64,000 nucleotides of DNA, taken from the sequence record OM632664.1. The stretch is one strand, 5' to 3'. A program made the position numbers and the translations under genes. This DNA is from Escherichia phage BEU5. The notes beneath the pieces are model-generated. The model did no database searches. It was not told the origin of the DNA and saw only the letters and a list, made by a program, of their open reading frames with translations. This document shows, one piece after another, positions 52,146 to 53,069 of the stretch (position 1 is the first letter of the stretch; every line of letters begins with the position of its first letter).

Positions 52146-52514
52146 ATGTTAGGTGATAACACTAATGCTCTGTTTGGGGTGTCAGCCAGACCTATTATCA
52201 TTGTTAATAAACATCATGGTAAAAAGGGTGAATATATTGGGCGTGGTTCTCCTCTGGGTAATCCATTCGTTATTGGTAAAGATGGAACCAGAGAAGAAGT
52301 AATTGCCAAATATAAAGTATGGCTACAAGAACAGATTGATAAAGGTAATCCAGTTGTACTGGATGAATTAAATCGTCTTGGTAATAAAGCCATTGATGAA
52401 AAAGGATTAGCTTTACAATGCTTCTGTTATCCAAAACCTTGTCATGGCGAGGTTATTAAAGAGAAGTTAGTAAAAGCTATGTATAACTACTTTGTGGAAA
52501 ATCCTAATGGGTAA
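52146..52514 (+). CDS. DUF4326-family protein
   Basis: YIGRGSPLGNPF ... CFCYPKPCHGEVI matches the DUF4326 hallmark spacing as I recall it (G-N-P-F and C-x-C-x-P-x-x-C-H-G). Confidence 0.55.
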   Translation: MLGDNTNALFGVSARPIIIVNKHHGKKGEYIGRGSPLGNPFVIGKDGTREEVIAKYKVWLQEQIDKGNPVVLDELNRLGNKAIDEKGLALQCFCYPKPCHGEVIKEKLVKAMYNYFVENPNG

Positions 52515-52692
52515 ACAATGCAAATGTGGTAAAGGCTATATATCCCAATGGGATGGTAAGTGTGGTCATTGTAGAACCAAGAAAGAACAACGTGACCATG
52601 AATATGCACTTCAAGAAATGATTGTACCTGTTGAGAATTTAGGTATGGCTCCACTTGAGGCTTACAAATATATAAGGAGATTATGCAAATGA
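52507..52692 (+). CDS. small zinc-ribbon-like protein
   Basis: MGKQCKCGKG...CGHCRTKK (two Cys pairs); overlaps neighbours on both sides. Alternative TTG start at 52492. Confidence 0.4.
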   Translation: MGKQCKCGKGYISQWDGKCGHCRTKKEQRDHEYALQEMIVPVENLGMAPLEAYKYIRRLCK

Positions 52693-53069
52693 AAGAAGTA
52701 TTCGTATTTGGTTCTAACCTAGCTGGTGTACATGGTGCTGGTGCTGCAAAGACAGCATATAAGAAACATGGAGCCAGATGGGGTAAAGGGCATGGTCATT
52801 ATGGTGACAGCTATGCCATTCCCACTAAAGATACCAATATCAAAACGATGACTATTGAAGACATTCGTACATTTGTAAAAGCCTTCATTGTCTATGCTGC
52901 TAATCATCCAGAACTTAACTTTAAAGTTACTCGTGTAGGTTGTGGATTAGCTGGTATTGATGATTCTGTTATGGCCTCTATGTTTGAAAATGCCACTGGT
53001 AACTGTTCCTTTGACTTAGCATGGAAAAGTTACTTAGGGGATGATTTCAACTACTGGGGAACGTTCTAG
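52683..53069 (+). CDS. hypothetical protein with macro-like Gly-rich motifs (fold unverified)
   Basis: VFGSNLAGVHGAGAAKTA and VTRVGCGLAGIDDS resemble macro/SLOG nucleotide-binding loops; 128 aa is short for a canonical macro domain. AAGGAG RBS. Confidence 0.35.
   Translation: MQMKEVFVFGSNLAGVHGAGAAKTAYKKHGARWGKGHGHYGDSYAIPTKDTNIKTMTIEDIRTFVKAFIVYAANHPELNFKVTRVGCGLAGIDDSVMASMFENATGNCSFDLAWKSYLGDDFNYWGTF

What the first reader, a model, noticed from the sequence alone, without database searches (positions are those of the whole stretch)
52146..53069. Overlapping three-gene cassette: DUF4326 protein, small zinc ribbon, macro-like protein
The three ORFs overlap at both junctions, which suggests translational coupling, and sit just upstream of the RNAP II promoter in the early accessory region. 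DUF4326 has no established function. Early-region cassettes like this often encode host-takeover or anti-defence functions, so a role in ADP-ribose or NAD-related signalling is a hypothesis worth testing.
Basis: partly seen in the sequence, partly recalled or inferred. Interest (0 to 1): 0.6.

Follow-up and report, generated by a model that had tools for sequence, protein, structure and literature searches.

The report
Phage N4 early ADP-ribose eraser genes
These are the early genes gp12, gp13 and gp14 of coliphage N4: gp14 is a compact macrodomain enzyme that most likely strips ADP-ribose from DNA or small molecules to blunt host defence, and gp12 and gp13 are probable helper proteins; none has a tested function.

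Summary

Fusions elsewhere link the parts: DUF4326-macro, DUF4326-macro-SLOG, NADAR-DUF4326, DUF4326-SLOG and Zn-ribbon-DUF4326.

The trio is not a fixed unit. Only 19 of 80 gp14-type loci have a DUF4326 gene nearby, and only 12 have the Zn-ribbon. Overlapping junctions are normal across gp4-gp14, so they do not mark out a cassette.

The DUF4326/Macro/SLOG/NADAR link is already published as a prediction (Iyer et al. 2021, 2022).

Verdict: a real but ordinary early accessory module, probably ADP-ribose erasing and counter-defence, and untested. It is a new member of a known kind, of moderate interest.

The parts
52146..52514 (+). gp12, DUF4326 protein (122 aa). Invariant R33, N39, C92, C94, P96, C99, H100. 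Predicted small alpha/beta domain with the Cys/His loop between a strand and a helix.
52507..52692 (+). gp13, 61-aa protein with a putative N-terminal zinc ribbon (C5, C7, C19, C22; motif K-x-C-x-C-G-K-G-Y-x-S-x-W-D-x-x-C-x-x-C-R-T) and a variable C-terminal half. It overlaps gp12 by 8 nt.
   Evidence: phrog_13804. The four Cys are conserved in 13 homologues. The same motif is fused N-terminally to DUF4326 in Erwinia phage Fifi067 (L003:2381-2812) and in L125.
52689..53069 (+). gp14, compact macrodomain protein (126 aa from ATG 52689; 128 aa if ATG 52683). Residue numbers below count from 52683. Key residues: N12, H17-G-x-G20, P47-T-K49, G86-C-G-L-A-G91.
53087..53107 (+). Hairpin GCTGC-TCC-GCAGC followed by TTTTGG, between gp14 and gp15. 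It is a promoter-like site of the virion-RNA-polymerase type and marks the downstream border of the gp8-gp14 block.
   Evidence: The pattern matches three + strand sites in the early region, at 48634, 49103 and 53092. Their stems differ by compensatory changes. Identifying them with the known N4 early promoters rests on my recollection of the N4 P2 sequence.
51325..51660 (+). gp9, a divergent DUF4326 paralogue that lacks the invariant Arg, Cys and His residues. It is probably non-catalytic and lies in the same early transcription unit.
   Evidence: Pfam DUF4326 2.8e-4, below the cut-off. phrog_464 4e-20. BLASTP against gp12, 2e-08. Alignment.

Best explanation
gp12, gp13 and gp14 are early accessory genes of an N4-type phage. 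They are made in the first minutes of infection and together supply ADP-ribose-erasing capacity.

**gp14** is the core enzyme. It is a minimal macrodomain of the TARG1/DarG2/AdfM type. It binds the ADP-ribose moiety through its N-x4-H-G-x-G and G-C-G-L-A-G loops. It probably uses Asn12 and Lys49 to cleave ADP-ribose from a conjugate. The most likely substrate is ADP-ribosylated (thymine) DNA made by DarT2-like host toxins, so that phage replication and transcription can go on.

**gp12** (DUF4326) is a second, still uncharacterised Cys/His/Arg enzyme or ligand-binding domain. It works on the same class of substrates, perhaps on a ribose-linked phosphate or on the nucleic-acid side.

**gp13** is a small zinc-ribbon accessory of gp12 and gp14.

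**Shown:** the identity and conservation of the genes, the macrodomain fold and motifs, the domain fusions, and the position in the early region.

**Inferred:** enzymatic activity, the substrate, cooperation between the three proteins, and a counter-defence role.
For: - The best PDB sequence hit of the family profile is TARG1, though not significant (E 0.22). It aligns PTK with TARG1's LITK (the catalytic K84, by my recollection of TARG1 numbering) and GCGLAG with GCGLD.
- hhalign against the experimentally validated AdfM (PhiKZ gp104) gives E 3.8e-4. It puts gp14 N12 and K49 on AdfM N23 and K78. Those are the active-site residues named in PMC13309987.
- N12 is kept in 153, H17 in 154 and K49 in 135 of 154 family domains.
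- Rosetta-stone links: P0320 is DUF4326 + gp14-type macro, and P0385 is DUF4326 + macro + a SLOG-like domain. L140 is NADAR-DUF4326, L106 and L113 are DUF4326-SLOG, and L003 and L125 are Zn-ribbon-DUF4326. All five loci lie in schitovirus early regions upstream of a gp14-type macro.
- Pfam on the long members of the gp14 family finds SLOG, NADAR and DUF4326 partners.
- Precedents: phage orphan erasers AdfN (NADAR, PMC11825919) and AdfM (macro, PMC13309987) defeat DarTG.
- In other phages, DUF4326 neighbours are mainly DNA replication, repair, modification and nucleotide-metabolism genes. That fits a nucleic-acid substrate.
- The genes sit between a terminator-like hairpin at 51063 and the third early hairpin promoter-like site.
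Against: - There is no experiment on any of the three proteins.
- gp14 does not reach any Pfam Macro or PADLOC DarG model.
- The TARG1 Asp125 position is Ala in gp14.
- The link to AdfM is weak: hhalign probability is 36%.
- The trio is not conserved as a unit.
- In T-even and jumbo phages DUF4326 sits among nrd and td genes. That points to nucleotide metabolism rather than defence.
- Immediate neighbours of the family in bacterial genomes gave no DarT or other ADP-ribosyltransferase among the 25 most frequent families.
- N4's sensitivity to DarTG is unknown to me.
Confidence: 0.45

Rival explanations
1. The module degrades small ADP-ribose-derived molecules rather than DNA adducts. Candidates are host immune signals or toxins such as gcADPR or His-ADPR from Thoeris, ADPr-1''-phosphate and ADPr>P. 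gp14 would remove groups on the distal ribose. gp12 (DUF4326) would act as a phosphatase-like enzyme on ribose-linked terminal phosphates. This is the published prediction of Iyer et al.
For: - PMC9503650 and PMC7824862 predict exactly this from the fusions of DUF4326 with SLOG, Macro and NADAR.
- SLOG partners recur.
Against: - DarG and TARG1, which act on nucleic acid and protein substrates, match gp14 at least as well as Poa1p does.
- DUF4326 neighbours in other phages are mostly DNA replication, repair and modification genes.
- The known N4-like anti-Thoeris and anti-CBASS hotspot is a different locus (10.64898/2026.06.04.730250).
Confidence: 0.25
2. The three genes are functionally independent neighbours in a tightly packed early operon. 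gp14 is a stand-alone eraser. DUF4326 serves nucleotide or DNA-precursor metabolism or DNA modification. gp13 is an unrelated small zinc protein.
For: - Only 19 of 80 gp14-type loci have a full DUF4326 gene within 4 kb, and only 12 have the Zn-ribbon.
- Only 18 of 86 DUF4326 loci have the macro.
- Overlaps occur at 7 of the 10 junctions from gp4 to gp14.
- The DUF4326 homologue lies between td and nrdA in T2 and between the reductase and its activase in fEgEco12.
- The tblastn search found 1300 phage records with DUF4326, against 457 with the gp14 family.
Against: - There are repeated independent fusions of DUF4326 with this macro family, with NADAR, with SLOG and with the gp13-type Zn-ribbon.
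- Wherever both genes occur in schitoviruses, DUF4326 lies upstream of the macro on the same strand.
Confidence: 0.2
3. gp14 is the eraser for a phage-directed ADP-ribosylation, or it clears RNA-repair by-products (Appr-1''-p). It would be a writer/eraser or housekeeping role rather than a counter to a host toxin.
For: - PMC9503650 reports an 'N4-like' ADP-ribosyltransferase family as one of the commonest among viruses.
- Macro and Poa1p enzymes process Appr-1''-p, which arises during tRNA or RNA repair. This is established knowledge.
Against: - A Pfam scan of ten virion and unknown-function N4 proteins found no ADP-ribosyltransferase. This was not exhaustive.
- No RNA-ligase or Tpt1-type genes were seen near the locus.
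- The 'ADP-ribosyltransferase' label on the RcPeripeteia homologue is on the macro gene itself.
Confidence: 0.1

Closest known systems
AdfM (PhiKZ gp104), the phage-encoded DarG2-like macrodomain that removes DarT2 ADP-ribose from DNA (PMC13309987)
   Same: Both are stand-alone phage macrodomains. [quoted passage not shown] DarG is the best structural match of gp14.
   Different: gp14 is about 35 residues shorter and lacks an insertion of about 18 residues. It does not reach the Pfam Macro model, whereas AdfM does at 4.9e-07. It belongs to a separate sequence family (NF049995). It is an early gene of a podovirus with no phage nucleus. Its activity is untested.
TARG1/OARD1 (C6orf130) and the DarG antitoxin macrodomain
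   Different: The TARG1 Asp125 position is Ala90 in gp14. There is no DarT-binding C-terminal domain and no adjacent DarT. No PADLOC DarG model is matched.
DUF4326 (PF14216), including the T4-type nrdA.1-like ORFs. The Aravind group places it in the rhodanese-phosphatase superfamily (PMC9503650).
   Same: gp12 is a full-length member, with all invariant residues present. [quoted passage not shown]
AdfN, the phage NADAR orphan antitoxin against DarTG1 (PMC11825919)
   Same: The logic is the same: an early phage-encoded eraser of DNA ADP-ribosylation. NADAR is fused to DUF4326 in a schitovirus early region (L140).
   Different: The fold is different, and N4 itself has no NADAR at this locus.

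Membership tests
Macrodomain superfamily (gp14) | Three-layer alpha/beta/alpha macro fold | tested here: met
Macrodomain superfamily (gp14) | ADP-ribose-binding loops: N-x4-H-G-G-G-type loop 1 and G-x-G-x-x-G-type loop 2 | tested here: met
   N12-x4-H17-G-A-G20 and G86-C-G-L-A-G91 are present. They are kept in 145-154 of 154 family domains. Equivalence to the canonical loops rests on the hhalign and HMM alignments and on established knowledge of macrodomain motifs.
Macrodomain superfamily (gp14) | Match to the Pfam Macro model PF01661 | tested here: not met
   No Macro hit even at E<=10. PhiKZ AdfM does hit it, at 4.9e-07.
Macrodomain superfamily (gp14) | Binding or hydrolysis of ADP-ribose conjugates | not testable with these tools
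   Needs biochemistry.
DarG2/AdfM-type DNA ADP-ribosylglycohydrolase (gp14) | Catalytic Asn and Lys (T. aquaticus DarG N22 and K80; AdfM N23 and K78) | tested here: met
   hhalign of the family profile against AdfM aligns N12 with N23 and K49 with K78. E is 3.8e-4 but probability is only 36%. K49 is kept in 135 of 154 domains.
DarG2/AdfM-type DNA ADP-ribosylglycohydrolase (gp14) | Sequence membership in DarG models | tested here: not met
   No PADLOC-DB hit at E<=1.
DarG2/AdfM-type DNA ADP-ribosylglycohydrolase (gp14) | Removal of ADP-ribose from thymine in ssDNA; rescue from DarT2 | not testable with these tools
   Needs an in vitro assay and a phage challenge.
TARG1 class (gp14) | Lys84/Asp125 catalytic dyad | tested here: not met
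   The Lys equivalent is present (K49). The Asp125 position is Ala90 in GCGLAG, and Ala in 145 of 154 domains.
DUF4326, PF14216 (gp12) | Pfam model above the gathering score, with the invariant residues | tested here: met
   81.1 bits against a cut-off of 25. R33, N39, C92, C94, P96, C99 and H100 are invariant in 70 sequences.
Rhodanese / Cys-phosphatase superfamily (gp12) | Strand-P-loop-helix with a CX5R (or CX4-5R) active-site loop | tested here: not met
   The loop between strand 88-92 and helix 101-118 reads C-F-C-Y-P-K-P-C-H-G. No Arg lies in the loop; the invariant Arg33 sits in a different loop.
Rhodanese / Cys-phosphatase superfamily (gp12) | Fold similarity to solved phosphatases or rhodaneses | tested here: inconclusive
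Zinc ribbon (gp13) | Two Cys pairs (knuckles) conserved across homologues | tested here: met
   C-x-C-x11-C-x2-C is kept in all 13 distinct homologues, including the two fused to DUF4326. Neither the fold nor metal binding was tested.
Conserved three-gene cassette (gp12-gp13-gp14) | The same three genes, adjacent, across related phages | tested here: not met
   The trio is kept in N4-type and some related phages. But only 19 of 80 gp14-type loci have a full DUF4326 gene, and 12 of 80 have the Zn-ribbon. pSb-1-like loci have gp12 followed directly by the macro.

The most novel reading that the evidence does not exclude
DUF4326 is a new kind of enzyme or nucleic-acid adaptor that works obligately with DNA ADP-ribose erasers (gp14-type macro, NADAR). 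It might remove a phosphoribosyl remnant, or it might target the eraser to modified single-stranded DNA. Its relatives in T-even phages (nrdA.1-like) could then be the unidentified phage factor that AdfN needs for full activity. In that case the N4 gp12-gp13-gp14 set would be a three-part repair pathway for ADP-ribosylated phage DNA, not a single eraser with bystanders.
Probability: 0.15. Interest if true: 0.7.

Novelty: new member of a known kind. Interest (0 to 1): 0.4.

Why it matters
N4 is a classic, genetically tractable coliphage, and most of its early genes still have no assigned function.

If gp14 is an AdfM-like eraser, it would extend macrodomain counter-defence from nucleus-forming jumbo phages to the large family of N4-like phages. 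In the phage collection, 457 records carry this gene family.

It would also give a simple system in which to find out what DUF4326 does. That domain occurs in 1300 phage records, in giant viruses and in eukaryotes.

The fusions collected here (Zn-ribbon-DUF4326, DUF4326-macro, NADAR-DUF4326, DUF4326-SLOG) say which proteins to test together.

If the genes turn out to be independent, the finding is an ordinary stretch of early accessory genes.

Tried and rejected
**Sequence searches that found nothing useful**
- Searches of gp12 and gp14 against PDB sequences gave nothing significant. The gp14 profile gave only a sub-threshold TARG1 hit.
- PADLOC gave no hits for any of the five early proteins.
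- Rfam at gathering threshold on 48400-56500 gave nothing.
- The sigma-70 promoter scan found fewer sites than in shuffled sequence (13 against 24.9), so it is uninformative.

**Building a deep alignment for the gp12 model**
- A profile search meant to return diverse DUF4326 proteins returned only near-identical N4-type proteins.
- The final model therefore rests on 14 sequences.
- Foldseek against PDB with that model found nothing.

**Hypotheses checked and dropped**
- No phage-encoded ADP-ribosyltransferase was found among ten N4 virion and unknown-function proteins. This was not exhaustive.
- The 'ADP-ribosyltransferase' next to a gp14 homologue in RcPeripeteia is the macro gene itself, mislabelled.
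- The N4-like 'anti-signalling hotspot' preprint concerns another locus.
- I found no paper on N4 gp12-14.
- Bacterial and MAG neighbourhoods of the gp14 family are heterogeneous. No DarT appears among the 25 most frequent neighbour families.

Full report
**What the window is.** The 1.4 kb around the finding is 100% identical to Escherichia phages BEU13, BEU44 and BEU51. It is 98.2% identical to coliphage N4 at nt 3259-4659. In the N4 records the three ORFs are gp12, gp13 and gp14. They lie between gp11 and the two RNAP II subunit genes gp15 and gp16. In the BASEL phage AlfredRasser they are annotated 'DUF4326', 'hypothetical' and 'macrodomain protein'. The window is a circular permutation of the N4 reference; N4 nt 1 corresponds to about window 48542.

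**The observation.**
- gp12 runs 52146-52514 (122 aa) and has a strong AAGGAG 6 nt upstream.
- gp13 starts at ATG 52507, not at the TTG listed mechanically, and ends at 52692 (61 aa). Its start overlaps the gp12 stop as ATGGGTAA. Only a weak GGAA precedes it, so coupling to gp12 translation is plausible.
- gp14 has two candidate starts. ATG 52689 lies 9 nt after AAGGAG and overlaps the gp13 stop as ATGA. ATG 52683 lies only 3 nt after AAGGAG. N4 RefSeq uses the equivalent of 52689, and homologues align from residue 3. Residue numbers for gp14 below count from 52683.
- The overlaps are real but do not mark out a unit. From gp4 to gp14, seven of ten junctions overlap.
- No Rfam family reaches its gathering score in 48400-56500. 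The minus strand holds only short ORFs.

**gp14.**
- It matches no Pfam family. It does match NCBIfam NF049995, 'A1S_2505 family phage non-structural protein', at 4.5e-45, and phrog_2072.
- The family is large. About 8000 proteins passed the word-indexed search. An exhaustive search found 4223 representatives of 50% clusters.
- An AlphaFold2 model built on 56 homologues has pLDDT 94.8 and pTM 0.90.
- The family profile's best PDB sequence hit is TARG1. It is not significant (E 0.22), but it aligns AIPTK with LITK and GCGLAG with GCGLD.
- A profile comparison with PhiKZ gp104 (AdfM) gives E 3.8e-4, with probability 36%. AdfM is the phage macrodomain shown to remove DarT2 ADP-ribose from DNA (PMC13309987). 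The alignment places gp14 N12 and K49 on AdfM N23 and K78, the residues that paper names as the active site.
- Across 154 domains from the top 150 family representatives, N12 is kept in 153, H17 in 154, P47 in 154, T48 in 151, K49 in 135, and G86, C87, G88, A90 and G91 in 139-150.
- The TARG1 Asp125 position is Ala.
- gp14 is therefore a genuine but minimal macrodomain of about 126 aa, of the TARG1/DarG/Poa1p class. It forms its own sequence family outside the Pfam Macro and PADLOC DarG models.

**gp12.**
- It is a full-length DUF4326 (81 bits against a cut-off of 25).
- In 70 diverse sequences the invariant residues are R33, N39, C92, C94, P96, C99, H100 and V103.
- I could not assemble a deep permitted alignment. 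The model on 14 sequences still has pLDDT 85, with blocks covering residues 21-110 at 86-97.
- The predicted elements are strand 17-21, a long loop carrying R33 and N39, helices 49-65 and 69-84, strand 88-92, the C-x-C-x-P-x-x-C-H-G loop, and helix 101-118.
- The RapZ domain binds RNA and has an anion pocket that its authors think could hold a ligand's phosphate (PMC5737377).
- This is compatible with the published placement of DUF4326 in the rhodanese-phosphatase superfamily (PMC9503650), but it does not establish it. The classical CX5R loop is absent.
- The three Cys and one His could equally form a metal site. I could not inspect the model's coordinates.

**gp13.** It has no Pfam or NCBIfam match. 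Thirteen distinct homologues keep K-x-C-x-C-G-K-G-Y-x-S-x-W-D-x-x-C-x-x-C-R-T and a following His. The C-terminal half varies.

**Are the three linked?** The evidence cuts both ways.

Evidence for a link:
- Among the long members of the gp14 family, Pfam finds YAcAr/SLOG (4), NADAR (2), DUF4326 (2), WYL_2 (2) and DprA-like (1) partners.
- P0320 is DUF4326 directly fused to a gp14-type macro, in the same order as in N4.
- P0385 is DUF4326-macro followed by a C-terminal region resembling SLOG/DprA-like domains. That last call is by eye; Pfam did not match it.
- In other schitovirus-sized contigs, the DUF4326 gene upstream of the macro is fused to a NADAR-like domain (L140), to a SLOG-like domain (L106, L113), or to a gp13-type Zn-ribbon (Fifi067 L003, and L125). 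The NADAR and SLOG assignments were also read by eye.

Evidence against a fixed unit:
- Of the 86 loci then held that encode DUF4326 (80 from the viral collection plus six fetched earlier), only 18 have a gp14-type macro in the flanks held. These are the N4-like contigs plus one other.
- Of 80 loci found through gp14, 19 have a full DUF4326 gene within 4 kb, always upstream on the same strand. Twelve have the Zn-ribbon: ten as a separate gene just upstream of the macro, and one fused to DUF4326.
- Some loci have Zn-ribbon plus macro without a full DUF4326 gene (L089, L096, L097).
- pSb-1-like phages have DUF4326 followed directly by a divergent macro with no Zn-ribbon gene (L012-L015).
- Outside schitoviruses, the genes next to DUF4326 are mostly DNA replication, repair, modification and nucleotide-metabolism genes. 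They include UDG, SbcCD-like, Mom, amino-acid:DNA transferase, polymerases, ThyX and dCTP deaminase, plus SLOG.
- In T2 the homologue lies between td and nrdA. In the jumbo phage fEgEco12 it lies between a nucleotide reductase and its activase.
- In bacterial and MAG genomes the immediate neighbours of the gp14 family are heterogeneous. ADP-ribosylglycohydrolase (2) and SLOG (2) recur. No DarT appears among the 25 most frequent of 124 families.

**Transcriptional setting.**
- The pattern GCTCCGCNNCTTTTGG matches three + strand sites in the early region, at 48634, 49103 and 53092. Each is a 5-bp stem with a 3-nt loop followed by TT(T/A)TGG. The stems differ by compensatory changes.
- The site at 49103 equals what I recall as the N4 P2 virion-polymerase promoter. 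I did not check that recollection against a paper.
- The third site lies between gp14 and gp15. gp12-14 therefore end just before the hairpin promoter-like site that precedes the RNAP II genes. They lie downstream of a terminator-like hairpin at 51063-51088.
- That vRNAP transcribes the early genes including gp15 and gp16 is stated in PMC13434306.

**Most likely mechanism.**
- gp14 binds ADP-ribose and hydrolyses an ADP-ribose conjugate using N12 and K49.
- The closest structure (DarG), the AdfM alignment and the two precedents (AdfM and AdfN; PMC13309987, PMC11825919) make ADP-ribosylated DNA the leading candidate substrate. The DNA-centred neighbourhoods of its partner DUF4326 point the same way. 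I put confidence at about 0.45 for the whole statement; it is higher for 'ADP-ribose eraser' alone.
- gp12 and gp13 are probable auxiliaries. Their chemistry is unknown.
- The main rival is degradation of soluble ADP-ribose derivatives, as predicted by Iyer et al. (0.25).
- Next is functional independence of the three genes (0.2).
- Last is a role opposite a phage ADP-ribosyltransferase or in clearing RNA-repair by-products (0.1). A Pfam scan of ten N4 proteins found no transferase.

**Novelty and score.**
- The genes are known N4 genes, and the macrodomain label already exists in one annotation.
- The DUF4326-Macro-SLOG-NADAR association is published as a computational prediction.
- What this work adds is:
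  - the structural assignment of the NF049995 family to the DarG/TARG1 class, with the AdfM catalytic pair conserved;
  - the Zn-ribbon-DUF4326 fusion;
  - the degenerate paralogue gp9;
  - the finding that the trio is a lineage-specific arrangement of mobile modules.
- This is a new member of a known kind. It is worth a straightforward genetic test, but it would not surprise a specialist. Interest: 0.4.

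Noticed in passing
window 51325-51660 (+): gp9 is a second, degenerate DUF4326-like protein. It lacks the invariant Arg33 and the Cys92, Cys94, Cys99, His100 loop. Similar weak copies sit upstream in several related phages (L016-L018, L089-L092, L096, L097).
   Followed up: partly
window 48634-48649, 49103-49118, 53092-53107 (+): Three hairpin sites, each with a 5-bp stem and a 3-nt loop followed by TT(T/A)TGG. Their stems differ by compensatory changes. They look like the three early promoters of the N4 virion RNA polymerase. The third precedes the RNAP II subunit genes.
   Followed up: partly
window 52683 vs 52689: gp14 has two in-frame ATGs. The Shine-Dalgarno spacing and the homologues favour 52689 (ATGA overlap with the gp13 stop). 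Public annotations disagree: N4 RefSeq uses the second ATG and AlfredRasser the first.
   Followed up: yes
L140:2059-2931; L106:1718-2692; L113:2-868; L003:2381-2812; L125:1969-2430: In other schitovirus-sized contigs the DUF4326 gene upstream of the gp14-type macro is fused to a NADAR-like domain, to a SLOG/DprA-like domain, or to a gp13-type zinc ribbon. The NADAR and SLOG assignments were read by eye, not tested with Pfam.
   Followed up: partly
L170:2483-2809 (phage T2); L005:2022-2348 (fEgEco12); L004:2010-2294 (KVP40): DUF4326 homologues of T-even and jumbo phages sit inside nucleotide-precursor gene clusters: between td and nrdA, or between a reductase and its activase. The common annotation 'ribonucleotide reductase NrdA-like' for DUF4326 proteins probably derives from the name nrdA.1 and is misleading.
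   Followed up: partly
proteins P0243, P0245, P0257 (gp14 family representatives): Some family members carry two gp14-type macrodomains in tandem or flanking leucine-rich repeats. In these copies the Lys49 position is Arg, Val or Met, which suggests binding-only or differently catalytic copies.
   Followed up: no
L171:3001-3369 (Rhodobacter phage RcPeripeteia): A gp14-family macrodomain gene is annotated 'ADP-ribosyltransferase', probably a writer/eraser mix-up. It lies next to ThyX, a DNA methylase and a DprA-like gene.
   Followed up: partly
window 51063-51088, 49034-49053, 49620-49641, 55221-55246, 56161-56179 (+): Strong terminator-like hairpins followed by T-runs punctuate the early region: 11 found against 4.8 expected. 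One lies between gp7 and gp8, so gp8-gp14 form a block bounded by it and by the third hairpin promoter-like site.
   Followed up: no
L172 (MAG labelled 'archaeon', contig 69347 bases): An N4-like contig with gp12-, gp13- and gp14-type genes (gp14 72% identical) is binned in an 'archaeon' metagenome-assembled genome. This is probably a phage contig mis-binned.
   Followed up: no
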